Source of the DNA: Perkinsus olseni | Taxonomy: Eukaryota | Length of the DNA: 64,000 bases | NCBI GenBank assembly: GCA_013115125.1 | Contig: JABANN010000107.1 | Span: 1 to 64,000, forward strand | Reading direction: 5' to 3' | Shown: positions 1-59,510 of the stretch, piece after piece | Position numbering within the stretch: the stretch's first letter is position 1 | Layout of the letters: every line of letters begins with the position of its first letter | Made by a program: the position numbers and the translations under genes | The notes under the pieces: model-generated | The model's database searches: none | What the model was told of the DNA's origin: nothing | The model's input: only the letters and a program-made list of their open reading frames with translations

Positions 1-1235
1 TGAGTGATCCGCTGGTGCGCTCTTCTGCCCATGGTTCGAGATGTTGCCGACGGACACTAGGAAGAAGCTTTACGGGCGCCCTAAATTTGTCACGGATGTC
101 ACAAATATCCTGCGGTTGTCAATGAATTAATCAGTGATGTCACAAATCGCTTTCAAAGTTTTAAGAGGGTGTAAGCAAGGGCATGTTACTAAAAGTTAGT
201 AACTAACTGACTTTCAGCACAAGTGAAACTGTATTGCTGAGTCCAATCTCAACTGCAGGTTAAAACTAATTCGTAGGACAAATAAAGAAACGAAGGACTG
301 CGGGTGAGAGCTGAGGAAAGGGCAACTTGAAACCCCACCCGAAACCCGACAGGACAACCAGAAACCCGAACTGTTATCCAAGGACAAGCTGCTCCCAAGG
401 GAAGCAGAAACCCGAGCTGTTAGGTGGGTGAAGGCGGGAGAACAAATTTGGGGCAGGAGGTACAAAAAAGAGGCACGGACTAAAAAAGTTTTGACATCGT
501 GAACTTTTCCCTCTGCGAAGGCGCGTGCAATCACGGTAGATGTTAATAACAAAGTTGCATCGTTATTCTTGTGCTCGGAGCTACCCGGGGTGGAGTACAA
601 GAATGATTGCTGCCTGAGCTGGCATGAGGGTAATTACCTTTCCCTCTATGCTCAGCATTTACCCACCTAATCCTTGGGGACCAGCATCCTAATTTCGAAG
701 TCGCGGAATCAGCCTTGTGCTCGGAGTTATCCAGGAGTTGAGTGAACTTCACTCCACCCCATCCATTTTTTTCGAGTGCTGGAGATGATGCTGGTCGACG
801 ACCAGTGGTCGTGGCACATCGGGCGAGGCTTGTGCGATGGTCGTAGGCACAGCCCTCGGATGTGTAAGCGGATCCTGCCAGGAGGAAAGGAAGCCTTTCT
901 AGTTGAATGTACCCCTGAGGGGAGCTTATTGATTGATAATCTGTCTGATTGCACTGCATATCAACGCTACAGAGCGTCTCCAACTGTGCACATCGGCAAG
1001 AGTCTAACTAAGCCGGAACCGGCGTTGGACTATAAACTCACACACACCCCATCCAGTATTCAAAGTGACAACACTCTCAACCCGCGCTCGCAGAATCACA
1101 GTACTTCTCAAACAACTAGTTGGGGAGGCTTCAGCCAGCCGTTTCATCTCAGCACAACGAAACTGCTAGGCGGGACCCGCTCAGCGCATCACGAGCGCAG
1201 TAGTAGGGAGCATCAGCTCTACCGTAGTACTAGTG

Positions 1236-1355
1236 ACTAGTCACAGGACCACTAGTGGTAGTAGTACTAGTTACGGGACCACTAGTGGTAGTAGTACTAG
1301 TCACAGGACCACTGGTGGTAGTAGTACTAGTCACGGGACCACTAGTGGTAGTAGT
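1236..1355. repeat. 30-bp minisatellite, 4 tandem units (ACTAGTCACAGGACCACTAGTGGTAGTAGT consensus)
   Basis: Four consecutive units at 1236, 1266, 1296 and 1326 differ by 1-2 substitutions. Three units carry the internal palindrome ACCACTAGTGGT; the 1296 unit has one mismatch. Confidence 0.95.
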
Positions 1356-2218
1356 ATGAGGGTGGTTGACTTTTTCTCTATGCGCGCCCCCGAGTTCGCC
1401 GTATCCAGAGTACCATCGTTCTCAGTTGAAGCCTCAATGCCTGTTAGTACATCATCGGCCTCAAACCGCCTTGGAATATTCGATTCGAACACACCCACTG
1501 ATGAGGGAACGACACTCTGTGCTATTCTAAGGGTTCTACGACCATGGGAGGCTTCGTCACCGAGCGGCGCGATGCTGCCTTCTCACTTGACGGGCGCTGG
1601 GTTGGTGATACCTTGGGCGACGTCATTGGCGCAGTTATTGTGACGAGCATGATTGAGGTTCAGAGTTGAATAGCTTATTGCATTTCTAACGGTGTTGGAA
1701 TGGCTATGATCGGATGTGATCGGGACCGAGTAGCGTATTATCCATCATCTGGGAATAGTCCAGTCATCGCCTCTGGCTTGGTACTCATGTGCGGAGCCTC
1801 GAGATTATACCGGTAGACCGACAGGTTGGGTCGATATCTATTACGAATCGGGATCGCAGCGCATCGACACGCCGTCAGGAAGAAGTTGGAGCGAGCAGGG
1901 GTTGATATCACCGCCATCGATCCCGGCTCGAACGTCAGCGATTTCTAGAGGCCTCAAATTCTGAATGGCCGAACTTGCTCAGACCACCTCGTCCCACACG
2001 ATAAGGTGCCCGAAAACGAGATGATAGGCTAGGTTGTCGTCCAGAACACGTAGTCCAGCATGCATGAGTGAGATTACACATCCAAAGAATGACAGTCTGA
2101 CCGAGTCTGTCGATAAATTTCCAACCTCTATCCTCACCTTACTGCCAATTCAGCACGTTATTTGCAAACAGCATCAACATCATGCCACATTCCCATGATA
2201 CAACTGAGTCTGGCCTCA

Positions 2219-7912: not shown

Positions 7913-8506
7913 CTAGCCCTGGACTTGAAGGTACGGATGCTGCTTTCGGAGACTGGAACCAGCTTTCAGGCCAGAAGCAACAGCTCCGGCCGTTGGCTCG
8001 TAGTCGTACTCGTCATCACTTTCGTTGTCAGGTAGTCTGCTGACAGCGAAGTGCCTCAGGTTCTCGTGCAAAGCCTTGTGGAGCGAGGGAGGCTTGATAG
8101 AAGGCACTGCCGGGATAGAAGGCGTCGGCGGGAAGGTAATCTTGGGTACCGTGACTGACGGTAGCGTGATGGTCGGCATGGTGATTGTGCTAGTAGTACT
8201 CGATGTGGTAGTAGACGCCCTAGTAGTAGTGGATGTCGTAGAAGCGGTGGTGGTTGTCGTAGAGGCGGTGGTGGTACTGGTAGTGGTAGAAGGTGCCTTT
8301 GTGGTCGTCGGAGAAGGGCGAGCCGTAGTGGTACTGCTAGGGCTGACTGTCGTACTAGTCGTAGTAGCGGGAGTAGCGGGACGAGCCGTCGTGGTAGTCG
8401 TAACACTAGCCGGGCGGGCCGTTGTGGTGGGAGTCTTGCTGTTAGATCCACACCCCTGCAGGGCAATGGCAGCTAGGGCGCACGTGAAAGCAGCAGCGTA
8501 ATGCAT
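7913..8506 (-). CDS. Secreted Thr/Ser/Pro-rich mucin-like protein
   Basis: 197-aa ORF: hydrophobic signal ending in LQGC, then ~90 aa of Thr-rich low-complexity sequence, a Pro-rich spacer and an acidic patch (DNESDDEYDYE). Confidence 0.8.
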   Translation of the reverse strand: MHYAAAFTCALAAIALQGCGSNSKTPTTTARPASVTTTTTARPATPATTTSTTVSPSSTTTARPSPTTTKAPSTTTSTTTASTTTTTASTTSTTTRASTTTSSTTSTITMPTITLPSVTVPKITFPPTPSIPAVPSIKPPSLHKALHENLRHFAVSRLPDNESDDEYDYEPTAGAVASGLKAGSSLRKQHPYLQVQG

Positions 8507-10580: not shown

Positions 10581-11903
10581 ATGACTGAACTCAGATCGAC
10601 AGGCGACGTCTATAAGGACCCTACTGGTAGCACTGCTAGTGAGGCCCCCATCAACAGCAAGGATCAAATATCTTTCAGCGTCGAGAGAGAACGTCGTGGT
10701 ACGGTTCTCTCAGGATGGTCTGTCATGGCCAACTCCATGATCGGCACAGGTGTACTCGGTCTCGCTTCGGCTTTCGCCAGCGCCGGGTGGGTCCTGGGAT
10801 TCTCCCTCATGTTCATGGCTGGCTTCCTCGCCATTTTCAGCTTACACCTTCTGAACATATTAGCCATGAAGTTTCCGGATCGCGACGTGAGTTACTACAC
10901 CGTGGCCGAAGCTTATGCTCCCTGGTCGAGGTGGATTGTCGATATCACTATCGTTGTCAAGTGCTTCGGTGTGGCAGTCTCCTATCTGCAGGTGGCCGGG
11001 GACGTCTTGTCCTCTCTCATCGTCCACTGGACCTCTACCTCCGTCAGCCCCTTCCTCGTAAGGGCCCTAGTTATCGTTGGCTCTGGGCTACTCATGGCTC
11101 CAGTCTGCATGGCGAAGAGTGTTAAGAACACATTCATCACTAATGTGCTCGCTGTTGTGACCATTGGCTACTGCGTTATCCTAGGCATCATCTATGCAGA
11201 CCCGAGTGCCGGTGATGACAGTGCCGGTATCCCCGAAGGCTCGTCCGTAGCCTCAGTATTGGCCAAGCTGCCGATCTTCATCTTCGCCTTCACCTGTCAC
11301 CAGAACATGTTTCTCACCGCGAACGATCTCAGGCATCGGACTCGGAAGCACCTGGATATTATCATTGTGGCTGCGGAGTCCACGGCCATGTTGCTATACA
11401 TCCCGGCCGTCATTTTTCCTTATCTCACTTACGGCTCATCCGCCCGGGCCAACTTTATGCTCAACATCGACCTCGGTTATGTACCAGTACAGATTGGTTA
11501 CGTTGCGCTTGCCATTGGCGTATTATGCTCTTACACCCTTCAAGTCGTTCCCACCATCAGGTCGTTGATTGTTCTGGTAACTCGTGATAAGGAAGATAAA
11601 CTATCAGCAATAAAAAGGCGCATTCTCTTCTATTCAGTCGCCGCACTGTGTCAGCTGGCGCCTGTTGCAACCGCTGTAGCGGTGAGGTCATTGGGTGTTA
11701 CATTTTCTTTTGTTGGCATCATTGGTTCGAACACGATATCCTACATCATGCCGTCCTTTTTGTTCTGTACAATGTATCGTAAAACTAAGCTCCGTAAGGA
11801 TGCCAAGTATGTCATGTCTTCGCTACTACTGCTACTATCCCTAGTCCTTGTCCCCGTTTGCATCGGTTCGCTCATTCAGCAGATCATTACGGGGCAGATC
11901 TGA
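10581..11903 (+). CDS. Amino-acid transporter, Aa_trans/AAAP (SLC38/Avt-like) family, intronless
   Basis: 440-aa ORF with ~11 hydrophobic segments and motifs NSMIGTGVLGL and PIFIFAFTCHQN. Confidence 0.92.
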   Translation: MTELRSTGDVYKDPTGSTASEAPINSKDQISFSVERERRGTVLSGWSVMANSMIGTGVLGLASAFASAGWVLGFSLMFMAGFLAIFSLHLLNILAMKFPDRDVSYYTVAEAYAPWSRWIVDITIVVKCFGVAVSYLQVAGDVLSSLIVHWTSTSVSPFLVRALVIVGSGLLMAPVCMAKSVKNTFITNVLAVVTIGYCVILGIIYADPSAGDDSAGIPEGSSVASVLAKLPIFIFAFTCHQNMFLTANDLRHRTRKHLDIIIVAAESTAMLLYIPAVIFPYLTYGSSARANFMLNIDLGYVPVQIGYVALAIGVLCSYTLQVVPTIRSLIVLVTRDKEDKLSAIKRRILFYSVAALCQLAPVATAVAVRSLGVTFSFVGIIGSNTISYIMPSFLFCTMYRKTKLRKDAKYVMSSLLLLLSLVLVPVCIGSLIQQIITGQI

Positions 11904-13409: not shown

Positions 13410-14726
13410 ATGTCCAGCGATGAAGCGCGCCAGCAGGACTTCCCTACGGTCTCCTCGGAGACTAGCTTTCAAGTAAGTATGAAGCCTCGGCTCAGTGAGG
13501 ATACCACTGCTGAGCCTACGGGGACCGTTCTCTCTGAGTGGTCAGTCATCGCCAACACGATGGTTGGCACTGGCGTCCTAGGCCTGGCCTCGGCCTTCAC
13601 GGCCACTGGTTGGGTCCTAGGCTTCTGTCTGATGACCGTGTCTGCCTTGATGGCAGTCTTTGCGTTACACCTGATGAACTGCCTGTCAATGAATTCCAAA
13701 ACCCGTCAGGTCAGCTGGTACACCGTCTCCGGGCTCTACTGTCCGTGGGCCAAACTAGTGGTCGACATAGTCGTGATCGTCAAGTGTGCCGGTGTGGCTG
13801 TCTCCTATCTGCAGGTCGCCGGTGATATGCTGTCAATGCTTCTCGTATTTTGGAGTGGTACTGACTTCAGCCAGTCCACAGTGAGATCCCTCATCATCGT
13901 GGCGGCAACGCTGATGATGGCTCCGACGTGTATGGCGAAGGAGTTGAAATCTACCACCCTGGTCAACGTACTCGCCTTGGTCACTATAAGTTACTGCGTT
14001 ATCCTGGGATGTGTTTATAGCGATGTTGATGCTGGCGACGACACTGTCGGTATACCACCCCAATCGTCATTCACTAACATTCTTGCTAAGCTGCCGGTTT
14101 TCATATTCGCCTTTACTTGTCACGAAAACATGTTCCCGTGTGCGACTGATATGAAGGAACGCACTCAAAAGAAGCTCGATCTTGTGGCCATCTCCGCCGA
14201 ACTCACCGGTTTCATTATTTTCTTACCCGCTGTGATTTGCCCCTATTTGACATTTGGTTCTCACGTTGAGCCGAACTATTTGCAGAACATTGACTTTGAG
14301 AACAACATTCCAGTCCAAGTAGGTTACGTAGCGCTTTCAATCGGTGTGCTATGCTCCTACGCCCTGCAAGTGGTTCCTATCGTGAGGTCGGCTATGGTCC
14401 TCGTCACGCGTGGTAAGACTATAAGTAGCCGCAGGAAGGCTAACATCATCTTCTACACAGTAGCTGCTGTGTGTCAGTTGGTCCCTATGGCATTGGCTAT
14501 CGCCGTCCACTCCCTCGGTGTGACCTTCTCATTTGTTGGTATTGTTGGCTCTAACACCATCGCGTACATAATGCCGTCTTTCCTCTACTTAATGATGGTC
14601 AGGAAGACTGGTTCCAAGAAGGGTGTAACCTTCTATTTGGCCTTCGCTCTTTGCGTAGTTGCAGTATGTCTTTTGCCACTCTGCATCGGATCCCTCATCC
14701 AACAGATCATAGCGGGTACTGAATGA
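13410..14726 (+). CDS. Amino-acid transporter, Aa_trans/AAAP family, intronless tandem paralogue
   Basis: 438-aa ORF with NTMVGTGVLGL and PVFIFAFTCHEN; collinear with the 10581-11903 protein. Confidence 0.92.
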   Translation: MSSDEARQQDFPTVSSETSFQVSMKPRLSEDTTAEPTGTVLSEWSVIANTMVGTGVLGLASAFTATGWVLGFCLMTVSALMAVFALHLMNCLSMNSKTRQVSWYTVSGLYCPWAKLVVDIVVIVKCAGVAVSYLQVAGDMLSMLLVFWSGTDFSQSTVRSLIIVAATLMMAPTCMAKELKSTTLVNVLALVTISYCVILGCVYSDVDAGDDTVGIPPQSSFTNILAKLPVFIFAFTCHENMFPCATDMKERTQKKLDLVAISAELTGFIIFLPAVICPYLTFGSHVEPNYLQNIDFENNIPVQVGYVALSIGVLCSYALQVVPIVRSAMVLVTRGKTISSRRKANIIFYTVAAVCQLVPMALAIAVHSLGVTFSFVGIVGSNTIAYIMPSFLYLMMVRKTGSKKGVTFYLAFALCVVAVCLLPLCIGSLIQQIIAGTE

Positions 14727-47045: not shown

Positions 47046-47650
47046 ATGTTCTTCCACCTCGGCAACAAGCAGGATGGTTCACCCATAGACCTGTACCGAG
47101 ATACTCCCGTGAGACTGTTGGGCTATGCCAATGAGCTCGGAGAGTCTTTCAAATACCTCATCTCAAGGCCCGCGTATCTCACCACCTACGGGGTCGCCAT
47201 AGCATATGTAACGACGACGTGGCGGTTCCGCGGAAATTACCTGTCTTAGCAGGTTCTCGCCGACACCTTCGACAAGACCAAGCGAGCAGAACGGCGACAG
47301 CAATGGAAGGTCGCCCTCGACACGCTAGGGTGGCAAATGCTGGCCAGCGTAGCCATCCCGGGTTTGGTCATCAATAGAGTGGTATGGACTACTAGAAGAG
47401 TCATGCAGGAGAGACAACTTACAAGTACCCGCTGTAGAATGATAGGCGTTCTGCACACAGTTGCCCTCAGATAAGCTCCTCCCGACGTACTTGGGCTTAG
47501 CATGCATCCCCTTGATAGTAGCAGCTACTCTCAACTTCACTGGAAGCAGCTTTGCACATTCAGGTGACCCCTATCGACAGAACCATCGATTGGCTTTTCG
47601 ATAATACAATACGGAAACAACGAGATTGGCCTAAATCTGATCCACATTGA
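47046..47650 (+). CDS. MTFP1: Mitochondrial fission process protein 1 (MTP18) (multi-exon)
   Basis: DLYRDTPVRLLGYANELGESF, YVLADTFDK, DTLGWQMLASVAIPGLVINR, PTYLGLACIPLIVTPID are diagnostic MTP18 blocks. Confidence 0.93.
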
Positions 47651-47871
47651 GTGCTCTAGCCCAATCCGTCCTGTTGCGTTAGTAGTTTCCTCTATGAAGT
47701 AGCTGAGAAGCACTGCAATTCAGCACTGTAAAGGGAGAGAATTGATGATACTCAACACAACATAAGTGAGGAGAATGCTCCAAAGTCTCGAGTCCTTGAA
47801 ACGTCAACCAATCAGCATCATCATCACCGAAGCGACGACGACTAGATCAATCGAAGCAGTAGTTGCAGCCT

Positions 47872-48243
47872 TTACTCAGACTTCTTCTGGTGCTGGCAGC
47901 CCTTAAGAGCGTACTTGGCGTTACGAAGGAACTTAGGGCACATACCGCGAGTGGACATCTTCTTGTAGGTGGGGGCCTGACAACACACAGCAGTCCAAGT
48001 TAGCCCAAGAGGCAATGACGATAAGTGGGCCGAGAATATACTACGCCCTCCTCCAGTGAACGTTCTTGCATACACACAGGCAAACTAAGGCGTCAAACGA
48101 GTCTATTTTACCGGTGCCAATGACGCGATTTTACGAGGGATTCAGTAGAGAGGAAACGCGGATCGACGTTGTACCTTCTTGATGCCGTTGCGGTGGGCCT
48201 TCTTGATCTGGTTGTGGTTGGTATGGTTCTTGGACTTGGCCAT
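47872..48243 (-). CDS. RPL29: 60S ribosomal protein L29 (2 exons)
   Basis: MAKSKNHTNHNQIKKAHRNGIKK | APTYKKMSTRGMCPKFLRNAKYALKG. Confidence 0.97.
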
Positions 48244-48397
48244 GGTGACTGATTCTCAGAGACTCGAGAGGTAAGAGCACGTCAATTAGGCAAATCGATT
48301 AAGCTACCGCCTTGAGGAAATGCAAGATAGCAAGATTCTCATTATTTTGTGGGGTTAGCGTCGGTCGCAGAACGTAAATTTTTATCACCGATTCCTT

Positions 48398-49541
48398 ATG
48401 AAATCTCCTGCCCATGTGATGGCCCTCGAGGTGAAGATGTTTGAAGGCCTGATGAGTGAACGAGGTAAAAATGGGAATTTGCCGGAGATTCTTGGCGACT
48501 TCTGTGCGGGGTTGAAGAGGAAGAGAAAGTGCGACTTGGTGGTGGCGGAGAATGAGTTGGTGTTAAACCCACCACCATCATACATCTTCGTTATGAATGA
48601 GGATCTGTGTGGTGTCTATCCCACCCCTACTGGTGTATATATTAGGAAACCATTAGAACGTGGGGAGGAGGTCATGGTACTACAGCCAGGCTTTCAAGGT
48701 ACCAAGGCTGTCTACTATCATCATAACAACAACAAATCACAACTATCGTATTGTGTGAGGATAATCGTAAGTTGATTATTTATGACCTGAGTGCCTCACC
48801 AGAGCGGCCCGGAGTTACCTCGGAGGTCCTCGGCCTGCCCGGACTGGCGACGTGTTATAGTCGTAAGATGGGCATGGTCAGCAACGATGACTACATCTTC
48901 ATCCTCATAGCCACTGGCCATCTCTTCTACATCAACCGTAGGGACATTCGAGACACCGTCCAGGCATACCTAGGCTGGTCAACAGACGGTTCCAGCGGGC
49001 GCTGCGACCATCTCCTATTAGACCCCAAGAGGGCCTCTTCAGTAAAGGTGATCATGCTCGAGCGTTTCTCTTTCAATATAGCTGAGATCGCTCTGGCTAG
49101 TTACAGAGGTCGTCCCGGCAGGGCTCACTTCATGGGACTTCGCACAACCCAGAAGCGTCCCTCTTTCGGATTATCGACAAAGCTGGTCACCATCGTCCCC
49201 GTAGAGCACGGGATGTTCGGGTTGGTGACTCGCGAGAGTCATACTGGGGCTAGTAAAAAGAAGGCCAAACTGCATCTGATAGGCGCTTCAGACCCCTCTG
49301 TGATGATCATGTGACCATCGCTGACGATTACAAAGAAGCGTACCACTTGCAAGTTCTTAGCGGGCCTGGGGATGCTCTCTACGTACTAAGAAGGGATATG
49401 TCGTTTGCCGTTCAACCTCATTTCAACGTCCCTGACGACCGGTCGGACCGTACCGCATCTTCATCGGACAGTGTAATATCCGATGCTTGCCCCACTGATG
49501 ACCCTAAAAGATTGACAATCTACAATTCATGGTGGTGGTGA
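48398..49541 (+). pseudogene. Tandem family (shared-core, F-box-like N-terminus) copy 1, frameshifted
   Basis: Three overlapping ORFs (48398-48775, 48751-49314, 49311-49541) together align with copies 2-5. A 1-nt deletion is visible in the core (CAACTATCGTATTG vs CAACTATTCGTATTG in the other copies). Confidence 0.85.
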
Positions 49542-49745
49542 TACCCTTCGTGATAGATTATGCTGATTCCACGGCTGTTTGAGTCACTGGCGAGGCTCTG
49601 TGTTCTAAGGTGAGTAAAGGAGAGGATGCTTCCATCGTACTCCACGGGATGCGGATAAGGTTGATAACGTGGAAGTTGCATAAAATCGGACAGTATTATT
49701 TAAGTGGTGCGTTTGTCAGTTGGGTCGTACAATAGAATCTCTTAA

Positions 49746-50888
49746 ATGAAGTCCCCATCGCATGTGACAGCGTTAGAGCTCCGACTGTTTGAGACTGTGC
49801 TGGAGGGTCGGGGGAGGGCGGTCGCACCACCCGAGCTGGTGGGCGAGTTAGCACTCTTTCTGGGCACTCGACCGTGTACGCTGGATTGCCCTCGAGAGGA
49901 GGTCCTAGTGAACCCACCACCATCATACATCTTCGTTATGAATGAGGATCTGTGTGGTGTCTATCCCACCCCTACTGGTGTATATATTAGGAAACCATTA
50001 GAACGTGGGGAGGAGGTCATGGTACTACAGCCAGGCTTTCAAGGTACCAAGGCTGTCTACTATTATAATAATAATAACAACAAATCACAACTATTCGTAT
50101 TGTGTGAGCGCAACAGACGTCTCATCGTCTACTCCCTGTCCCCTGCAGGCCGTAAACAAGGCCATGTGGTGAGGGTGCTAGGCCTTCCCAGGGCAGTGAG
50201 GTCGATCACCGACATGGTCTCCCACGGGCCATTCCTCTTTGTCCTTCTCTCCCGTGGGCATCTCTTCTGTATAGATCAGTCCCATCTCACTACGACGGTC
50301 CAGGCAAAGCTAATATGGTCCAACTCCTTCTATGGCCGATCAGAGGGGTTGTTGGTGGACCCTAGGGAGCCAAAGTGGGTAAATGTATTGGTGAGGGGCG
50401 ACCACGAGATATTCAAGGTACGATTGAGGATGGAGTCCCGCCGGGCACCGCTCTATTTCCAACCCCTTATGGTGGATACGGCACCCATCACTGATGACGA
50501 GCCGGGTGGGCCCAGGCTAGTCGCGGTACGGCCGGTCGACCACAGGCTCTTCGCCCTGGTCTTGCGTCGCTTGGAGGACTCGGAACCTCGTGATTGCTGG
50601 GTTGAGATATGTGACAGGGACTTTGAGACTGTGATGGACGAGTGCAAGGTTAGTCAGGAGTACACGGAGGGGCGGTATATGCAGATCGTGTCGTCTGGCC
50701 ATGGAGACGTCGTTTACATTCTTCGAGATGATACATCGTTCTCACCGCCTTACTCGAGGGAGTGGAGCTCCGATAGTGATGACAGCTCTGAGAGGTCGAG
50801 CGAGTTTGATGATGAGGGGGCAATTAGGCGCCTCTATTTTGGCTGTCCGCGTCGAATCAGCGCGTACTACGTGTACGCTCGTGATTAG
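49746..50888 (+). CDS. Tandem family copy 2 (380 aa, intronless)
   Basis: Intact ORF with the shared core PPPSYIFVMNEDLCGVYPTPTGVYIRKPLERGEEVMVLQPGFQGTKAVYYY. Confidence 0.88.
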   Translation: MKSPSHVTALELRLFETVLEGRGRAVAPPELVGELALFLGTRPCTLDCPREEVLVNPPPSYIFVMNEDLCGVYPTPTGVYIRKPLERGEEVMVLQPGFQGTKAVYYYNNNNNKSQLFVLCERNRRLIVYSLSPAGRKQGHVVRVLGLPRAVRSITDMVSHGPFLFVLLSRGHLFCIDQSHLTTTVQAKLIWSNSFYGRSEGLLVDPREPKWVNVLVRGDHEIFKVRLRMESRRAPLYFQPLMVDTAPITDDEPGGPRLVAVRPVDHRLFALVLRRLEDSEPRDCWVEICDRDFETVMDECKVSQEYTEGRYMQIVSSGHGDVVYILRDDTSFSPPYSREWSSDSDDSSERSSEFDDEGAIRRLYFGCPRRISAYYVYARD

Positions 50889-51848
50889 TTATGTTGGGGA
50901 TTGTCGGGCTTATGTCTTAACGTGGAGTATCTTTTTGAACCTCGTATTGGAGTTGAGTCAAGTTCGAGTAATACCGCACAGTCCCACCATCAGTCTATCA
51001 GAAGGTGCTTCTCAAGTCTGGACCCCTTCAACTCGGGTTCAGCGCGGCAGTCGTCGGTTACGGCCAGCTGGAGAGGCTTTGGTTCGAGGATGACAGATAG
51101 ATGAATGGTAGTAGTGGGATGTGGCACTCGCCCCCTAGCATACGCCTTGTCGACTGACCGACCATCATCATTGCATCTACGGCGCACTGGAAAGATGCAA
51201 CACGGGAAAAGGAGGCCACTATGGCGCGCGGCGTGGGTAGGGGGGTTGAACTATCAAAGCACTGGGCCAGTATTCGCTAACCGCTGTCTGCTGCTACGTG
51301 TTATAGTGACCTCATTTTGAATTTTTCCCGTTACAAGAGCCAGCATCATTTCCCTGATCATCGTCTCCTGGTGCAGCTCTGAGGGGCCACTGCTCTGCGG
51401 TCCACAGGTTGTGGATGACCGTCCTCTCAGTCCTTGAATGGTTGTGGGTAGCTGGATGGAGCTTCTCTGTCGGGCTTACCCACTCTTCCTACACTCCTGT
51501 ACTACCGGCCGGGCGGTTAGGGGTCGTGGGCGGCTCTCATGTGCCGCCGCAGCCTGTAGGAGAATTCGACTTGTATCTAGGGCTTGTTGCTCGACTGGGG
51601 CCGAGTCTTGGCATCAAGATTAGCGTCAAGACTCAAGCTAGGCCTGCTCAGCAGGCCGTACCTCTGGCCCGTCTCATGACGAAAAGAGTCTCGGCGATGC
51701 TCCCAACAAAGCAGAGGGAGTGTCAACAGCTGACTCCGTGCGGGGATCTATTATTGAACAGAAGGGGAATTTTTGGCGTTGAGTTCCCAGGGTGGCTGAG
51801 CAGAGTGGATCGCTCTAGGGTGTCGATATTCGGGCAGTTTATTCCCCC

Positions 51849-52946
51849 ATGAAGAGCTTCCTCCAAATCCTCGCTTTGGAGTCTCGTCTCTTCGAGACCC
51901 TACTGAAGAGGAGGAGCGGTCAAGCAGAGTGCAGCGGGGGGCTCTTGTTCGTTTTCTCGAGCCTGGTGCCACAGAAGCGATACACACTGGACTGCCCTCG
52001 AGAGGAGATTCTAGTGAGTCCACCACCATCATACATCTTCGTTATGAATGAGGATCTGTGTGGTGTCTATCCCACCCCTACTGGTGTATATATTAGGAAA
52101 CCATTAGAACGTGGGGAGGAGGTCATGGTACTGCAGCCAGGCTTTCAAGGTACCAAGGCTGTCTACTATTACCATAATGACAAATCACAACTATTCGTAT
52201 TGTGTGAGGATAATCGTAAGTTGATTATTTATGACCTGATAACGGAGAAGAGTGTGGCGTACTCCATTCTCGGACTCCCTGGTAACGGCTCCCGCAGCAG
52301 CAAGAACGCCGACCTCGTCTGCAATCCGCTCTTCGCCTTCTTCCTGGCTGCCACTGGACACCTCTTCTGTATCGACTTGCGTACGGTGGACGATGATGCC
52401 TTGCAAGCCAAGCTGATATGGACCAGTCCTCACTCAGCCTCGCCGGAGAGTTCCTACGGGACGGTCAGATGCATGACAGGTGCGCCCGAGGCGGTGATGG
52501 TGACCATGGCTCATGTTGGTGACATCACTACCTATTTTCTCGGTATTGAGCATCCCGAGAAGCCGCCGCTGTATTTCACCGAGCTTTGTAAAACGGTCAA
52601 TAGCCTCGGTCTCCACTTGCCCTCGGATCATGCCGTTATTATACCTTTTGATGACCATCTCAATGGCTTCGTGATGAGGACCTATGAGCATGGCTGCTCC
52701 TATAGACTGTCACTCCTGAGCGACCTCGGTCACTCTATTGACATCGGCTACCGATTGCCGACTCGCCAGAGCCTGCAGATTGTGATTGGTGCCAAGGACG
52801 TTATATACATGATGAGGCAGGACACCTCAATGGTGTCCGCTGCCTACGAGTCATCTGATGGAGGTACTGCTTTGAATGGGGCGGCCAAGCGTAGGCGGAC
52901 CGTTCAGGCCCCCTGCTGGATCTCCACACACTACGTCTTTCTTTGA
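51849..52946 (+). CDS. Tandem family copy 3 (365 aa, intronless)
   Basis: Intact ORF with the same shared core. Confidence 0.88.
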   Translation: MKSFLQILALESRLFETLLKRRSGQAECSGGLLFVFSSLVPQKRYTLDCPREEILVSPPPSYIFVMNEDLCGVYPTPTGVYIRKPLERGEEVMVLQPGFQGTKAVYYYHNDKSQLFVLCEDNRKLIIYDLITEKSVAYSILGLPGNGSRSSKNADLVCNPLFAFFLAATGHLFCIDLRTVDDDALQAKLIWTSPHSASPESSYGTVRCMTGAPEAVMVTMAHVGDITTYFLGIEHPEKPPLYFTELCKTVNSLGLHLPSDHAVIIPFDDHLNGFVMRTYEHGCSYRLSLLSDLGHSIDIGYRLPTRQSLQIVIGAKDVIYMMRQDTSMVSAAYESSDGGTALNGAAKRRRTVQAPCWISTHYVFL

Positions 52947-53186
52947 TTGCTTCATTCTCTTTCGGCTTCCCTCTCCTGAACTTAATTCGTGATGGTGACC
53001 CCTTTGTCGTGGCATCACCATGTGAACCATTTCCTAGCATCTCTCTCAATTTCTTATCCGGTAATGGACTTGAGTTGCCTGGGAAGCTACAAGACAATCC
53101 AGACTGTCTTCGTCTGGAATCGTCGGCTTCGTCACTGGGTGGCAAAGTATCCCTTTCGCATAGTTACTGTAGAGTTGTTTCCGTGA

Positions 53187-54302
53187 ATGAGGCTGCCTGC
53201 AGAGATTATGGCTTTGGAGCTTCGAGTGCTCGAGACCATGCTGGAGAAGTCGGGCAGGTCGGGGACGCTACCCGAGGTTGGGAAGGCATACATGGATTTC
53301 TTGGGCACTCGACCGTGTACGCTGGACTGCCCTCGAGAGGAGGTCCTAGCGAACCCACCACCATCATACATCTTCGTTATGAACGAGGATCTGTGTGGTG
53401 TCTATCCCACCCCTACTGGTGTATATATTAGGAAACCATTAGAACGTGGGGAGGAGGTCATGGTACTACAGCCAGGCTTTCAAGGTACCAAGGCTGTCTA
53501 CTATTATAATAATAACAACAAATCACAACTATTCGTATTGTGTGAGGATAATCGTAAGTTGATACAGTACAACCTTTCCGACTCGCCCGTAGGCCAAGGC
53601 GTGACCACTGAAGTCCTAGGCCTACCAAAAGCTACTGCCCTCAATAAGACCGCATCACAGCTCCTCTACACCGATGACTTCGTCTTTATCATTTTCCCTA
53701 CCGGCCACCTCTTCTGCATCGACCGACTCGATATACGGGACGCGGCCCAGGCGAAGCTCATCTCCGCGGACCGACTCGATGCAGGGAGCACGCGGAGCCT
53801 GCTTTCGGTTCCTGGCGATTCGAAGGCGGTCAAGCTAGCAGTGTTGGGCTACCGAAGATTTAAGATGATTACTCTCAAATTAAAACAGAGGAGAAGCCCG
53901 TTGTACTTTGAAGAGGATACTGAGGAGCTTGACGTGGCATCGAAGCTCGGTGAGACTAACAGTGAGATGATGCTAGTCCAGGATGTAGCCGGCCAGTGTC
54001 TCGCCGTGATGGCCAGGTCCGGCGGAGTTAGCGGGTGCCGAATTTTCCTTTGCAGCAGATCCCTGAGGCCTCTGGGGAAGGCTCTGGTGTTCTCTAATGA
54101 GTACCAGCCAGTGCGCAACCTGCAGGTTGTCTTTGGCGCGGATGATTTGGTATACGTTCTCCGCGAAGATAATACTCTGGTCGAGCGCTTCTTAGAGGAG
54201 GACTATGATCCCGAGTCGGTTCATGAGTCGGAGTTGCGTGGCGACTCAGACGCTGACTACTCGAGAGCCTGCAGGCTGGCCACTTACTACATTTATAGGT
54301 GA
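53187..54302 (+). CDS. Tandem family copy 4 (371 aa, intronless)
   Basis: Intact ORF with the same shared core. Confidence 0.88.
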   Translation: MRLPAEIMALELRVLETMLEKSGRSGTLPEVGKAYMDFLGTRPCTLDCPREEVLANPPPSYIFVMNEDLCGVYPTPTGVYIRKPLERGEEVMVLQPGFQGTKAVYYYNNNNKSQLFVLCEDNRKLIQYNLSDSPVGQGVTTEVLGLPKATALNKTASQLLYTDDFVFIIFPTGHLFCIDRLDIRDAAQAKLISADRLDAGSTRSLLSVPGDSKAVKLAVLGYRRFKMITLKLKQRRSPLYFEEDTEELDVASKLGETNSEMMLVQDVAGQCLAVMARSGGVSGCRIFLCSRSLRPLGKALVFSNEYQPVRNLQVVFGADDLVYVLREDNTLVERFLEEDYDPESVHESELRGDSDADYSRACRLATYYIYR

Positions 54303-55250
54303 ATGCTGTTGATAATTAGAAGTTGAAGAATGGTTGTGAGTGGCGATACCAATTTTTACATTGTCTCATTTGCTGCCACTGGCGTTGTGTCATCAAACTC
54401 GGAGGAGGTGGAGAAGTTGAGGACGGTGTGGTATGGAATCAGTCACGGGGGTTGTAGTTGTCTTGCTCTGAATAAATTTTCTACTTTGATCTGCACGAGT
54501 TGCTAGTTCGCTGGTACTCGGTATCTCGATGGTTCTCTCAGGTCACGCTCACGAGTCAGGCATGTCTCTTTCTCTTGCAGGGGACAGGAGACTCGCCAGC
54601 TCGTTGTTGGAATGGTGCTAAGATGCAATATCAAGTAAACTGAATCAGGTGTATTCCCACCCCTAAGCCCCCATAGTGAACCCTCTAGTTCCCTAGTCTA
54701 CGCGTGGACAGGAACGGGCACTCCGTGCTGTGCACGCTGCTGCGTTGTCGGTAGCGAGTTCCCCGGCCCTGATTAGCGGCCTCGACGCCGTACGTTCTGT
54801 CTCGCTATAGCACCGGTACCTGGACACCGTCCTGGTCTCAGTGCCCGACTGACGGGGTCTTTCCCGTGGATAGCGCCGTAGTTGCTCGCCGAGCTATCAT
54901 TCACACCTCAGAGTTATCCCGTGTTCATTTCATGTGTTACCGTGTCACGAAAATCTGGGCCATCCGTATGAGAATTCTTACCCCCTCTCTTCTCATAACC
55001 ATGCCCACTTGGCCTGCGCCTCAGGTTGCTACTAGTGACAGCCACGGTAATGGGCTGCAACGAGAAGTGAATCCTACTTCAGGTCTAGTGCAATAGTTGT
55101 CCTAGAAGATACCCTAGACAGTGAGGCGTCAGCCCTACTTGGCGCCTCATGACTAGGGGCCACTGGTTGAACTGTTGTGAGATGTGGCCATTGGTTGTCC
55201 GAGTATATCCCTCAACCTTCAGTTCTTTCCCTCTGTGATTTTTCCTCGAT

Positions 55251-56387
55251 ATGAAATTGCCGCCCCACGCCATGGCCTTGGATTTACACCTCTTCGAGTC
55301 GGTGGTGCAGAAGTCTGCCGGTATGGGCTCCTTGCCTGAGTTGATGTGCGAGTTCGCCCCTTACATCGGGAAGAGGGAGCTTACGCTGGACTGCCCTCAA
55401 GAGGAGGTCCTAGTGAACCCACCACCATCATACATCTTTGTTCTGAATGAGGATCTGTGTGGTGTCTATCCCACCCTTACTGGTGTATATATTAGGAAAC
55501 CATTAGAACGTTGGGAGGAGGTCATGGTACTACAGCCAGGCTTTCAAGATACCAAGGCTGTCTACTATTATCATAATAACGAATCACAACTATTCGTATT
55601 GTGTGAGGATAATCGTAGGTTGATTATTTATGACCTGAAAAGCAGCCCCAAGCCAACCAGCATCGTAGTTGAGGTCCTGGGCTTGCCCGGTTCCAAGAGT
55701 AGCTATATGGATGAAAGTGGCGTGGAATTAGCTTGCACTGACGACTTTGTCTTTGTCCTCTCCGGTGCCCAGCGTATCTTCTGCATCGATCGACTTGGGG
55801 TCGTTGATAGCGCCCAAGCTAAGCTCATTTGGTCTGCCCGCTTCACGATGGTTGAGAACAGCCATCTGATGATAGATCCTCGGGAACCTCGGGCTGCGCA
55901 GCTGATATTATCATGTTCTTCCGAGTCACAGCATCCGTGGGTCCTCCTCGCGCTGCAGTTGAAAACCCGCCGAGAGCCTCTTTACTTCAGCAAGGCCTTC
56001 AGCGCGATTACCCCACAGGTGAGTAGAGATGAGGATGAAGATGAGGAGGCTACTGCTGTATACGACATTCAACCTGTTGGTCATCACGTCTTGGCAGTGC
56101 ACCACGCTGCCCCCTTCGTCGGAGAAGAGGCGATCACGCTTTGCAATCGGCAAATGTATGCCCTAGGCCCACCGATGCCTCTGTTGGACCTCTACGAGTA
56201 TCATGAACCACAGAGGAAGCAGCTAGTTTGTGGGGAGAGAGACCTCATCTACACCATTGGTGACGCCTCCTTTGATGCCGCTGACATAAACAATGCCAGC
56301 GCGAGAGTCGGGAATAAGAAAAGAAGAGTCGCCCGAAGACCGGGATCGGCGTCTCTAATTGGATCTTATTACGTTTCTAAGAAGTGA
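55251..56387 (+). CDS. Tandem family copy 5 (378 aa, intronless)
   Basis: Intact ORF; its core carries a few private substitutions (M>L, P>L, G>W, G>D). Confidence 0.88.
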   Translation: MKLPPHAMALDLHLFESVVQKSAGMGSLPELMCEFAPYIGKRELTLDCPQEEVLVNPPPSYIFVLNEDLCGVYPTLTGVYIRKPLERWEEVMVLQPGFQDTKAVYYYHNNESQLFVLCEDNRRLIIYDLKSSPKPTSIVVEVLGLPGSKSSYMDESGVELACTDDFVFVLSGAQRIFCIDRLGVVDSAQAKLIWSARFTMVENSHLMIDPREPRAAQLILSCSSESQHPWVLLALQLKTRREPLYFSKAFSAITPQVSRDEDEDEEATAVYDIQPVGHHVLAVHHAAPFVGEEAITLCNRQMYALGPPMPLLDLYEYHEPQRKQLVCGERDLIYTIGDASFDAADINNASARVGNKKRRVARRPGSASLIGSYYVSKK

Positions 56388-56723
56388 ACGTTACTTCGCT
56401 TTCGTCAACCAATCTCATCTGTCATGAGGGTGCTCCGGGGTCGCGTTCCACAGGTCTGGGCTACTGGGCCAATGCCACAGTGATGTGATCCGGATTCTAG
56501 TAACAGTCTCAGGGTCGAAGTCACAGGCCTCGGTGGGGCGGAGTGCCTCCTCGTCTTTTGAAGTACAGCTGCCGTGACTCCGTGCTTACTTACCAGGTCT
56601 CGCCTCCGGTCGGGTACTGGGCAACTGTCCTGGGGTCCCGGAGGCCTGGGATGAGCGCTGGTACAGGCGTGATGGTCCACCAGAGCTTCTCGGGCCGTCT
56701 CAGATTTGTTCCTCTCCTGTGTC

Positions 56724-58835
56724 ATGTGTAATACAACTGTTCCCAGCGGCCGGGATGAAGCAGCGTCATCTGCTGCCAGCACAACCTCCTCATCGGAATC
56801 GACTTGTTCTGGGGAGCCCAGGCTACCACTGCAAATGGAGATCTCTCTGCGCAGCAAGGTGGGACTGAGTGGGCTTAGAGGATCCTCCCCTGAGACTCCA
56901 GTGGGCGGCACTTCCCCGTTCTTCAGTCCTTAGTAACCATGATGAGTGTACGAAGCAAGGAGTGGTCAGTCATGGACGACCTATGGCGAACCTCTTCTAT
57001 GCTCAACAGACGGGAGAGGCGACCAGGGGTCAACATGGACGTAACGATCGGACTGAGGGACCGATCAATGTCTGACCGATCCTTATCGTCACAGTAGGTT
57101 GACACGCTCCGTGTGGAGAACATGACTTGGCGAATGAGAAACAAGTGGAAGAACCATGTGCCCTCCGAGATAGACTACGAGGATGATGCTAGTGTAAGAA
57201 GAATGCAATTTCGTGGCGCGCGACAAAGCTTGGGTGATCTCAGCCGGACTCTGCAGGCATCGACGAGTCTTGCAAAGGCCTTCTTGACGTTATCAAGGAC
57301 CACAATGAAGATATTGAAGTCGAGACTAGCCGGTAAAATAATGCGGCGGAGCGAAGTTTTTTCTGCTATCTTTGACTGAGCCCATTGCCTCTAGGATCCT
57401 AGCTGGAGCTCCCTTCGCCAGTACCTCTCTGAGCAGCGTCTTCCGTCACGAGTAAGGCAGGCGCCTACCGATCGGGAATCATGCGCAGCTTTCAGTCACT
57501 ACCACGGCTTCCTGCTGGACATGGATGGTGTCCTTCACCAGTTCGGCAAGGCTATCCCTGGCGCCAGTGAGTTCATGACCACACTCAACGCTGGGCAGGT
57601 AGCCGCCTCCTTGGGTCGAGGCTTCTTCTTCACACTTCCATAGGTGCCGTACATGCTGCTGACCAACGAGTGTCGGTACACTACGGAGGAGTTGAGTCGG
57701 AATCTATTGAGCATACTGGGGGTTAGCATACCCGCCAACCAGATCTACACGGCGGCTAACAGTAGGTCGCCACCTGCTCGGCCTCCCGCCGCTACTACGA
57801 TCTCTCAGGTGCTGCGGACTTCTTCTGTCGGCTGATGGCTAACGGCTGGACGGGCGTGGTCTACATCGTCGGTGAGGTGCGTCACGGCTGGGATGAACCG
57901 TCACCCCTGCTAGCATTTGTGTGATCAGATTGGTCTGGTCTCTACGGTGAGGCAGGCCTTTGTCAAACATGGGCTGCCGGAAGACTCGGTTGTCACGGGT
58001 GATACCAGGAGAAGTCGATCGCCGAAAGAAATTGATTACGTCCTCATCGGCTCGGTAACCAGCAATCTCGGTGAACAGAGAAACGCCGCAGCCAGGGATC
58101 GAACCGGCGTGATGCTACGTCCTCCGCCAGGTCCACTCTGACAACACTCGGTACGTCGAGTACGCCTGCTCCTGCGTACAGGAAGGAGCTCGGCTCCTCT
58201 TCACCTGTCCTGATTACTACGAGGTAGACCCTCTCCCCGTCCCTCCACCACATCCACTCCTTAGGTGACGTCGGATGGCAGCTACAAATTCGGCATGCCG
58301 ATGCCGGCGGTTGAGACCATATCCAAAGTAGACGGCCGCCACTACTACTGCTGCTGCTGCTGCTGGGCTTCATAACCGCCTTCAGGTTACTCATGCGTCC
58401 TCGTACAACCTGGGCAAGCCCAACCCACATATGCTCCGAATGGCTCGGCAGCGGTTGCTGTCACAGTATTCCCGTGGCCGCACCCCAGGGCTGGGGCCAG
58501 TCCTTTTTGTTGGCGACTCTCTAGGTGCTTGCTCACCACTGGTGTGTCACCTGTCACCACCCATCTCACAGGTACGGACATCCGTACGGCTATTGAGAAC
58601 GGCATAGACTGCGCCTTGGTCATGAGCGGGTGCACGGATGAACAACAGTTGAAGAGAAGCCCACTCCTCCCAAACTTCGTACCAAATTTCGCCCTATTCA
58701 TCTGCGCTGTTTACCCTCCGTCAGGTTTTTGTGAGTATCAAAGAGCTCATGGCCGCCTATGGGAGCGGCTCGCTGGTGCCTTGCGTCCCCGACCTCCCAA
58801 GCAGCGCTGGGGTGGCCGCAGCAGCAGTGCACTGA
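56724..58835 (+). CDS. HAD-superfamily class IIA (NagD-like) phosphatase with N-terminal extension (multi-exon)
   Basis: Motif I GFLLDMDGVL, motif II MLLTN, motif III NLGKPNPHML, motif IV LFVGDSLGTDIRTAIENGIDCALVMSG. The 5' exons from 56724 splice in plausible phase. Confidence 0.85.
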
Positions 58836-59510
58836 TAACGCTTCACACCCTGTCTATAATGAAGCTTCCTCAGCGTACACGTTACGCGAGGTGTCAATTT
58901 TTTGACGGGCTCGAGTCCTCGGAGAGGATCGTCAATGGTCACTCCCCTCGATCGGTTCCTGTGGATCATCTGATGCTACTCGCGAGATGAGCCAACTAAT
59001 GTGTCCTTATAGACTTAACGGCAGTCTCGCGTTAGTGAATTCATATGAGGAGGCACACGGACATTAGGGAACGTTTCTGGGGGAGTCCGCATGACTGCCT
59101 GTGAGAGTGATGCAGAACAAGAGGACTGGCGAGAGTTTCAGAGAGCGACTTCACCCAGCGAACACTGTGCGGCACCTGACGCGGGCTTGCTGCCCGGACG
59201 TGCAGCTGTCCGTAGGTGCGGGCTCTAAGGAAGACGGGCTAGGTGGCGGTGAAGAAATGGAAGCGATCGCACAGAGGCAGCATGCTACCACTCGGGATAG
59301 CGCTGTGCAGGAAATACAAGCCGGGAGGGGTGACTGTGTGGTCCCAGAGCGCACCAAGAATGGCCAAGTGGGGCCCACTGCGGCCCAGGGTTCAGCTCCG
59401 GGAAAGAGCCGGAGCACTCACGACCTACCCCGGCTCGAGGAACTGATAGAAAAAGCAGTAAACAGGCGATCGGGCATGAAGGTGGTGTAATTGTCATTCC
59501 GGCTGCTCAG

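What the first reader, a model, noticed from the sequence alone, without database searches (positions are those of the whole stretch)
48398..56387. Five-gene tandem array of divergent paralogues sharing one near-identical internal cassette
Seen: five co-oriented intronless ~370-aa genes whose N- and C-terminal regions are alignable only at protein level. Each contains a ~230-260 nt in-frame block that is nearly identical in nucleotide sequence, including synonymous sites (about 48566-48789, 49861-50108, 51987-52239, 53302-53562, 55383-55638). The identity tracts end at different positions: copies 2 and 4 share an extra 5' stretch (TGGGCACTCGACCGTGTACGCTGGA), copy 2 stops early at TGTGTGAG, and copies 1, 3 and 5 run to TATGACCTGA. 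Inference: synonymous-site identity with staggered ends points to recurrent local gene conversion or cassette exchange rather than protein-level selection. The result is a constant module joined to freely diverging variable regions, as in diversifying parasite gene families. I recognise no described family.
Basis: partly seen in the sequence, partly recalled or inferred. Interest (0 to 1): 0.8.

Follow-up and report, generated by a model that had tools for sequence, protein, structure and literature searches.

The report
Gene-converted patch in Perkinsus propeller genes
Five old, very different sister genes of the shellfish parasite Perkinsus olseni keep one 200-base stretch almost identical, most likely because the copies keep overwriting each other there; this is a clear case of a known process (local gene conversion), in an undescribed family of beta-propeller proteins.

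Summary
The cassette is real. Across the five copies and a sixth on another contig, silent-site difference is 0.00-0.10 inside it and 0.55-0.85 outside. Contigs from independent DNA runs break exactly at the cores, so it is not a polishing artefact. Trees of 27 Perkinsus proteins sort by species inside the cassette and by paralogue outside it: long-running regional gene conversion, as in TLR1/TLR6.

The flanks are old, stable paralogues with orthologues in P. chesapeaki, not fast-varying antigens, and show no signal or membrane segment.

New points: copy 5 is a hybrid of two genes, joined inside the cassette. The cassette is AT-rich at third positions (GC3s 0.36-0.41 against about 0.6). The proteins fold as two N-terminal helices plus a beta-propeller (pLDDT 83.7). 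They may be ubiquitin-ligase substrate adaptors, but the F-box resemblance is weak.

Sister arrays of this family carry homogenised patches elsewhere in the gene, and this scan earlier noted the same pattern in a MATH-gene array of this genome. Verdict: new member of a known kind.

The parts
48398..49541 (+). Copy 1 (c1): broken gene with two frame breaks (near 48748 and near 49280); an intact counterpart exists in another P. olseni assembly (P0007)
48566..48790 (+). Cassette in c1; identity with the unlinked copy c6 runs on to 48978 (396/408)
49746..50888 (+). Copy 2 (c2), 380 aa; orthologue P. chesapeaki FOL47_009594 (P0009) by pairwise identity
49861..50108 (+). Cassette in c2, including the 5' extension shared with c4; shortest 3' end
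51849..52946 (+). Copy 3 (c3), 365 aa; orthologue P0017 from an unnamed Logan assembly
51987..52239 (+). Cassette in c3
53187..54302 (+). Copy 4 (c4), 371 aa; predicted helices 4-21 and 28-39 followed by a beta-propeller; orthologue P. chesapeaki FOL47_009593 (P0002)
53302..53563 (+). Cassette in c4; the part shared by all copies encodes about residues 56-125, seven consecutive predicted beta-strands (about the first two blades, by strand count)
55251..56387 (+). Copy 5 (c5), 378 aa; hybrid of the 5' part of gene 5A and the 3' part of gene 5B, which are two tandem genes in another assembly (P0083)
55382..55638 (+). Cassette in c5
55478..55511 (+). Interval of the 5A/5B crossover, between the last 5A-type and the first 5B-type site, inside the cassette
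   Evidence: (protein differences), placed on the DNA

Best explanation
An ancient tandem array of Perkinsus-specific genes (two N-terminal helices plus a probably six-bladed beta-propeller) whose members diverged before P. olseni and P. chesapeaki split. Only the segment coding for about the first two blades stayed similar enough for homologous pairing, because it is the most constrained part of the protein. Ectopic recombination therefore keeps working there and nowhere else. Non-crossover outcomes copy 200-260 nt tracts between copies, including a copy on another contig, with tract ends that vary with how far homology reaches in each pair. This homogenises the patch separately in each species. 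Occasional crossover or deletion outcomes in the same patch join one gene's front to another's back and change copy number (copy 5). SHOWN: silent-site identity, species-sorted core, paralogue-sorted flanks, shared polymorphism, hybrid copy 5. INFERRED: non-reciprocal conversion as the mechanism, lock-in by purifying selection, and the blade assignment. Protein function, held more loosely (about 0.4): cytosolic substrate receptors of a cullin ubiquitin ligase, with the N-terminal helices as a truncated F-box-like adaptor grip and the divergent blades choosing different substrates.
For: Silent-site contrast and permutation test. Core tree needs 5 species-label changes (shuffled mean 10.3; 0 of 200 shuffles as low); the C-terminal tree needs 11 (200 of 200 as low). 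c2 and c4 are 1.00 identical in the core and 0.24 C-terminally, while each is 0.76 in the core to its P. chesapeaki orthologue. Three of the five named P. chesapeaki paralogues (P0002, P0009, P0085) share their own version of the 5' part of the core. An H/N dimorphism at one core position occurs in both states in 5 of 7 paralogue types seen in two assemblies. Window c5 differs from 5A only from alignment column 95 on, and from 5B only up to column 83. Runs X1 and X7 show 5B-type differences (11 sites listed) at the start of c5, and X1 lists the extra 1594-nt unit; X2 shows neither; the 5A C-terminal part is not found in G000. Read-derived contigs end about 30 nt inside the cores with no mismatches. 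Fold: pLDDT 83.7, propeller matches at Z 13-15. For the adaptor idea: residues 27-43 align to helix 1 of this genome's own F-boxes (E 0.004, best of 14 windows; reversed control E 0.21); Atlas look-alikes are DCAF17 at 0.92 for c4 and NHL/Kelch clusters with F-box at 0.77-0.85 for a sister protein; FBXO42 is the only one of 50 rows aligned from model residue 1; three Skp1 loci are present.
Against: The cross-species evidence is protein only; no DNA from other Perkinsus species could be fetched. The core tree has 63 columns and only 2 of 20 inner branches well supported, and the P. olseni rows do not form one supported clade. In P. chesapeaki homogenisation is partial: core identity among the three sharing paralogues is only 0.76-0.82, no higher than to P. 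olseni, and P0015 and P0016 are outside it. The core is AT-rich at third positions (GC3s 22-25 of 61-63 against about 0.6 elsewhere; 4 of 468 overlapping control windows as low), the opposite of GC-biased conversion, and this model does not explain it. Alleles are not more divergent in the core than in the flanks (22/414 against 57/1311, p = 0.42). The H/N site lies beside a slippage-prone AAT/AAC run. For function: no Pfam family passes its cut-off for any of 32 members; the F-box match has HH probability 7.8% and lacks the second half of the motif; the Atlas recognition score of c4 is low (1589); propeller matches are generic and include enzymes and lectins.
Confidence: 0.85

Rival explanations
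1. The cassette is a cis-acting recombination hub. An AT-rich, breakage-prone or open-chromatin site inside these genes initiates exchange, so tracts centre on it with staggered ends, and it is kept because it reshuffles front and back modules and copy number. This is compatible with the best explanation but makes the DNA site the cause rather than protein constraint.
For: All 15 pairwise tracts include the same central ~190 nt. GC3s and CpG are low only in the core. The c5 crossover lies inside it. P0003 joins a c4 front (0.97) to a c2-type back. A repeated element with a sharp end sits at the start of the core in c7.
Against: Homogenised patches in sister arrays lie at the 5' end of the gene and are not AT-rich (GC3s 0.59-0.73). 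Nested tracts are also what homology-limited conversion gives. Only two hybrids are seen, one (P0003) on a 3.2-kb contig that could be mis-joined across the repeat. The six cores are effectively one sequence, so the AT-richness is a single observation.
Confidence: 0.2
2. Nucleotide-level purifying selection on an embedded element (structured RNA, small-RNA target, protein-binding site) keeps the block identical without conversion.
For: Silent sites are nearly invariant and composition differs from the flanks.
Against: No Rfam match at E <= 1 in 47500-57500. Folding z-score -1.06. The block differs between species in a species-shared way. Tract ends differ pair by pair, and the c1-c6 tract runs about 190 nt further. 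The broken copy c1 carries the same block.
Confidence: 0.05
3. Assembly or polishing artefact: one consensus written over several divergent loci.
For: No raw or long reads were available (all four runs were contigs). The assembly is fragmented (3353 contigs). Collapse of the 5A/5B unit in this assembly alone is not fully excluded, and X2 may be the source sample.
Against: Two DNA runs from different studies give unique spacer contigs with 0 mismatches that end about 30 nt inside the cores, and a core contig at depth 346 against 73-86 for unique parts in X2. The same core peptide appears in paralogues annotated in four other P. olseni assemblies. Copies carry private variants, four of which recur in P0083.
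Confidence: 0.03
4. One recent event: a single donor segment was inserted into, or swept once through, otherwise unrelated genes (exon-shuffling or mobile cassette).
For: Sharp tract ends; the odd base composition could reflect one donor.
Against: The segment is the family's own homologous region, alignable in place in all Perkinsus relatives and in distant sister subfamilies. The core DNA occurs only in these six genes among the candidates scored in G000. Parallel homogenisation in P. chesapeaki and polymorphism shared among paralogues need repeated exchange.
Confidence: 0.05

Closest known systems
Regional gene conversion between mammalian TLR1 and TLR6 (PMC2077338; abstract and results section 6 read)
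   Same: Old tandem paralogues; one internal region groups by species and the rest by orthologue; identical codon use for conserved residues is 96.3% inside against 56-65% outside, compared with 96.0% against 35-40% here.
   Different: Here six or more genes rather than a pair, a 200-260 nt tract rather than about 900 nt, saturated flanks, pair-specific tract ends, a hybrid gene with loss of one unit, and an AT-rich tract.
Tandem arrays of Trypanosoma brucei with mixed dynamics (PMC1855330; abstract and section 9 read)
   Same: Protist tandem arrays in which homogenisation and divergence occur within one locus, by conversion and unequal crossing-over.
   Different: That survey reports GC3 raised or unchanged in such arrays relative to single genes; here the homogenised tract has lower GC3 than its own flanks. 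Members here are only about 40% identical overall.
Plasmodium falciparum DBLMSP/DBLMSP2 non-allelic conversion in the DBL domain (PMC10919680; abstract and outline only)
   Same: An alveolate parasite; conversion between diverged paralogues confined to one domain.
   Different: There it creates deep allelic diversity in a surface antigen; here it produces uniformity, in proteins without a signal or membrane segment.
Long-lasting segmental concerted evolution in mammalian gene pairs (PMC2720389) and in prokaryotes (PMC6053082); abstracts only; review PMC3924837, passages only
   Same: Homogenisation of specific segments persisting across speciation; conversion ends where divergence or insertions break pairing; shared polymorphism as a sign of conversion.
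   Different: Gene pairs of known function rather than a lineage-specific multi-gene array.
F-box/Kelch and related cullin substrate receptors (FBXO42, PDB 9o04_G, Z 14.0, rmsd 5.6, 284 aligned; KLHDC10, 9d8p_A, Z 14.8, rmsd 4.0, 263 aligned)
   Same: Short helical module plus propeller, cytosolic, expanded in tandem.
   Different: No complete F-box, no Kelch/NHL/WD40 Pfam signature, 6-16% identity; non-ligase propellers (RAG2, CyRPA, sialidases) score equally well.

Membership tests
Regional concerted evolution by interlocus gene conversion (TLR1/TLR6 type) | Silent-site identity between paralogues confined to a bounded tract | tested here: met
   pS 0.00-0.10 against 0.55-0.85; 0 of 10,000 permutations in 15 of 15 pairs
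Regional concerted evolution by interlocus gene conversion (TLR1/TLR6 type) | Tract groups by species, flanks group by orthologue | tested here: met
   Protein trees of 27 rows: 5 label changes in the core, 11 C-terminally. The core tree is short and weakly resolved, and homogenisation in P. chesapeaki is partial.
Regional concerted evolution by interlocus gene conversion (TLR1/TLR6 type) | Polymorphisms shared between paralogues within a species | tested here: met
   H/N dimorphism in 5 of 7 paralogue types; protein level, one site, next to a slippage-prone run
Regional concerted evolution by interlocus gene conversion (TLR1/TLR6 type) | Non-reciprocal transfer seen directly (donor unchanged) | not testable with these tools
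   Needs phased reads from clones or many isolates
F-box proteins (SCF substrate receptors) | Complete F-box motif (Pfam PF00646/PF12937) | tested here: not met
   No F-box family among hits for 32 members; none of the family's loci among 16 F-box-like matches in G000; only a helix-1-like 17-column match, probability 7.8%
F-box proteins (SCF substrate receptors) | Binding to Skp1 | not testable with these tools
F-box proteins (SCF substrate receptors) | C-terminal repeat domain able to bind substrates | tested here: met
   Beta-propeller, residues 43-371
F-box proteins (SCF substrate receptors) | N-terminal helices adopt the F-box fold | not tested
   N-terminal pLDDT 59-78 in the whole model; a separate model of this part could not be obtained
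Kelch / NHL / WD40 propeller families | Family-specific repeat signature | tested here: inconclusive
   Fold matches tie across propeller families; no Pfam hit over cut-off; profile positions about 105-150 hit repeat proteins that look NHL-like by eye
Variant surface-antigen families of parasites | Signal peptide or membrane anchor | tested here: not met
   Maximum 19-residue hydropathy 1.27-1.70 in c2-c6; a hydropathy scan only, no dedicated predictor
Variant surface-antigen families of parasites | Hypervariable alleles and rapid loss of orthology | tested here: not met
   57 of 1311 flank positions differ over five allele pairs; orthologues persist in other species

The most novel reading that the evidence does not exclude
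Perkinsus keeps an AT-rich intragenic recombination hub in this array. It holds the adaptor-proximal blades uniform and acts as a standing crossover point that recombines adaptor ends with substrate-binding ends and changes gene number between isolates. Together with the 5' patches of the sister arrays and the MATH-array exon noted earlier by this scan, 'one frozen patch per array' would be a genome-wide way of diversifying ubiquitin-ligase receptors, with conversion that is not GC-biased.
Probability: 0.15. Interest if true: 0.7.

Novelty: new member of a known kind. Interest (0 to 1): 0.4.

Why it matters
It is an unusually clean multi-copy example of conversion surviving in one small island while the rest of the gene is saturated, in a lineage (Perkinsozoa) where my searches found no such description. 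The island has practical effects: it has produced a hybrid gene and a copy-number difference between isolates, and it breaks short-read assemblies, so gene counts and models here are unreliable without long reads. The AT-rich tract is a ready test of whether ectopic conversion is GC-biased in this group. If the proteins are ubiquitin-ligase receptors, this is a previously unannotated, expanded receptor family of a shellfish parasite. The mechanism itself is textbook.

Tried and rejected
Pfam scans of four copies and of 32 family members: nothing over cut-off. PDB sequence searches with the family profile and the N-terminal profile: best E = 1, and no hit. Rfam at E <= 1: none. RNA folding of the c4 core: z -1.06. 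Relatives with DNA in viral, prokaryotic and metagenome contigs: none confirmed among 110, 42 and 58 pattern matches, so no cross-species DNA test. Viral fold library: generic propellers only. 'Low GC3 marks all homogenised patches in this genome': rejected, sister patches have 0.59-0.73 (three short reading frames were left out of the window control). 'The core is more polymorphic between alleles than the flanks': not supported (p = 0.42). 'New core variants are AT-biased': not evident by eye among the 15 variable positions listed. BC-box/VHL-box reading of the two helices (motif recalled): no Elongin-C-like locus beyond the three Skp1 loci in an exon-wise search, weak either way. The c5-front/c4-back join in RNA run X16 was not used, because short-read contigs cannot phase across a 200-nt repeat. 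Absence of the extra unit in X2 is only suggestive, since a filter drops some records. P0008 was not counted as independent because it matches c6. Cluster-member look-up, Skp1 complex prediction and a separate N-terminal model could not be run. Literature searches for Perkinsus with gene conversion, tandem paralogues, F-box or beta-propeller listed no paper on this array; I saw listings only. The Perkinsus genome papers (recalled) did not appear in those listings, and their text or supplements may bear on gene-family annotation and ploidy.
Full report
1. What is there. The window is from Perkinsus olseni, by the names of its closest protein relatives. Four intact intronless ORFs of 365-380 aa lie at 49746-56387. 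The first copy (48398-49541) has two frame breaks, near 48748 and near 49280; an intact counterpart (P0007) is annotated in another assembly. A DNA search of the genome with the core returned 6 of 6 scored candidates: the five window copies and c6 on contig C548. Next to c6, a seventh relative has an intact front end but loses the core at its first bases to a ~300-nt piece of a repeated element.

2. The cassette is far beyond chance. On a codon alignment of c1-c6 (c1 read with X at its breaks), the silent-site proportion pS is 0.00-0.10 in the core in 15 of 15 pairs, 0.55-0.85 N-terminally and 0.59-0.82 C-terminally. For codons that encode the same amino acid (10 pairs of c1-c5), 554/577 are identical in the core, 54/135 before it and 214/604 after it. 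Shuffling only such codons, which holds protein-level selection fixed, never reached the observed run score (0 of 10,000 in 15 of 15 pairs). All tracts include the same ~190 nt; c2/c4 extend 5', and c1/c6 extend about 190 nt 3'.

3. It is not an assembly artefact. I laid 4 of the 20 listed runs; all were contigs, not raw reads. In two DNA runs from different studies, each spacer is one contig with no mismatch or gap, and it ends about 30 nt inside the cores (for example 50079-52049, 52210-53380, 53534-55429). In X2 a core contig has depth 346 against 73-86 for the unique parts. X2 may be the source sample; X1 is from another study. The same core peptide is found in paralogues annotated in four other P. 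olseni assemblies (FOZ60-FOZ63). In the RNA run X16 the listed contigs lie on c2, c3, c4 and the start of c5, and the long spacers are mostly uncovered: a hint of expression, not proof.

4. It is concerted evolution of one region. P. chesapeaki has the same array (FOL47_009590-009595; five of these were retrieved by name). In trees of 27 proteins the core needs 5 changes of the species label (shuffled mean 10.3; 0 of 200 as low), and the C-terminal part needs 11 (200 of 200) and groups orthologues across species. c2 and c4 are identical in the core and 0.24 identical C-terminally; each is 0.76 in the core and 0.41-0.43 C-terminally to its P. chesapeaki orthologue. Three P. chesapeaki paralogues share their own version of the 5' part of the core. 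Against this: the core tree has only 63 columns and 2 of 20 well-supported branches; whole-core identity among those three paralogues (0.76-0.82) is about the same as to P. olseni; and two P. chesapeaki genes stand apart. An H/N dimorphism in the core occurs in both states in 5 of 7 paralogue types, the shared polymorphism expected of ongoing conversion (PMC3924837, passages), though it lies beside a slippage-prone run. Alleles are not more divergent in the core than outside it (22/414 against 57/1311, p = 0.42).

5. The cassette is also a crossover point. P0083 is a fused annotation of two tandem c5-type genes, 5A and 5B. Window c5 matches 5A up to alignment column 83 and 5B from column 95 on, with no difference from 5B after column 150. 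The switch lies at 55478-55511. Runs X1 and X7 carry 5B-type differences at the start of c5, and X1 lists an extra single-copy 1594-nt contig running from one core to the next; X2 shows neither. The 5A back half is not found in G000. 5A and 5B are only 0.34 identical C-terminally, so the pair is old and the window lineage has lost one unit. A collapse in this assembly alone is less likely but not excluded. P0003 (c4 front, c2-type back) may be a second hybrid, on a short contig.

6. An unexplained feature. The core has GC3s 0.36-0.41 and CpG o/e 0.22-0.46, against about 0.6 and 0.83-0.95 in the C-terminal parts. Only 4 of 468 overlapping control windows from 17 coding stretches are as low. The six cores are in effect one sequence, so this is a single observation. 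It runs against GC-biased conversion; Trypanosoma arrays show raised or unchanged GC3 (PMC1855330, section 9). No RNA family or unusual fold was found.

7. The wider family. Distant paralogues occur on at least eight other contigs. Several form tandem groups with their own homogenised patch, but at the 5' end of the gene: four genes on C1671 plus one on C1182 are 88-97% identical over 110-206 nt, and three genes on C1769 are 89-91% identical over about 380-390 nt in two of three pairs. These patches are not AT-rich. Local homogenisation therefore looks common in Perkinsus arrays, and its position varies. This fits conversion persisting wherever similarity stayed high.

8. The protein. AlphaFold2 with 32 sequences gives pLDDT 83.7 and pTM 0.79: helices 4-21 and 28-39 (pLDDT 59-78), then an all-beta domain closed by a C-terminal strand. 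Fold searches return propellers at Z 13-15 with no clear winner (RAG2, Kelch, NHL, CyRPA, sialidases); that these are six-bladed is recalled. The cassette covers seven strands, about the first two blades. There is no signal-like or membrane segment. Full-length hits that carry a name are all Perkinsus. The second helix resembles F-box helix 1 (E 0.004, probability 7.8%), but the rest of the motif is missing, and Pfam finds nothing. Atlas look-alikes are cullin substrate receptors or F-box propellers, at lead level only. The genome has three Skp1 loci. I put a ubiquitin-ligase receptor role at about 0.4. Binding could not be modelled.

9. How it most likely works. Ancient duplication; divergence of most blades; stronger constraint on the adaptor-proximal blades (0.76 between species); continued ectopic pairing only there; repeated conversion with homology-limited tract ends; occasional crossover or deletion giving hybrids and copy-number change. 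The patterns are shown; the causal order is inferred.

10. Comparison and verdict. It works like, and meets the testable criteria of, regional concerted evolution of the TLR1/TLR6 kind (PMC2077338, abstract and section 6: 96.3% identical codons inside against 56-65% outside). It differs in copy number, tract size, saturated flanks, the hybrid gene and the AT-rich tract. It is not a variant surface-antigen system and is not shown to be an F-box family. Searches for a description of this array or family found none (listings only). Real, well supported, mechanistically ordinary, with two points worth following: the AT-rich hub and the recurrence across Perkinsus arrays. Interest 0.4.

Noticed in passing
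L007:7131-6500 (G000:C548, minus strand): Seventh family member. Its core and middle are replaced, from the first bases of the core, by a ~300-nt piece of a repeat that has a sharp end and short subterminal repeats (4 matches in G000), followed by a 15-nt direct duplication. It looks like a hAT-type transposon end (recalled, no library test). Loose ends of matching sequence occur in runs X1 and X2.
   Followed up: partly
L040:4407-10000 (G000:C1671) and L042:7680-6255 (G000:C1182): Sister-subfamily array of four genes plus one on another contig, with an 88-97% identical 5' patch (about 55 codons) and divergent propellers; several members look frameshifted or truncated.
   Followed up: partly
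L046:3177-8402 (G000:C1769): Three tandem family members; the first shares about 390 nt at its 5' end with the other two at 89-91% identity.
   Followed up: partly
window 55414-55624: The c5 core carries five private amino-acid changes, some at otherwise near-invariant Gly/Pro positions; the same changes occur in the two genes of P0083, suggesting relaxed constraint on the 5A/5B genes.
   Followed up: partly
window 56960-58990: Gene downstream of the array; fused annotations of it with the last array member (P0018, P0085) carry Pfam PF13344/PF13242. The last array member differs between assemblies (type 5B here, type 5C in P0018).
   Followed up: partly
window 51106-51430: Run X7 shows a GT..AG joint skipping 323 nt in the c2-c3 spacer, suggesting a spliced untranslated leader or another transcript; a 145-aa ORF (51415-51852) ends at the c3 start.
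   Followed up: no
window 47880-48243 (minus strand): Ribosomal protein L29e gene, divergent from the array (first 24 codons match PF01779); very high depth in run X7.
   Followed up: partly
window 10581-11903 and 13410-14726: Two tandem amino-acid transporter paralogues (PF01490) without a long identical patch; the only repeat found between them is 44 nt at 75%. An internal control that not every tandem pair is homogenised.
   Followed up: partly
window 1206-1385: Five copies of a 30-nt tandem unit, related to a stretch at 8339-8398 within a Thr-rich ORF (7913-8506, minus strand).
   Followed up: no
L056, L058, L060, L061 (G000:C2514, C3135): A group of F-box-like proteins with nearly identical F-box regions and diverging downstream parts; possibly another homogenised adaptor module.
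   Followed up: no
L048-L050 (G000:C3068, C91): Three Skp1 loci, two in tandem and one divergent.
   Followed up: partly
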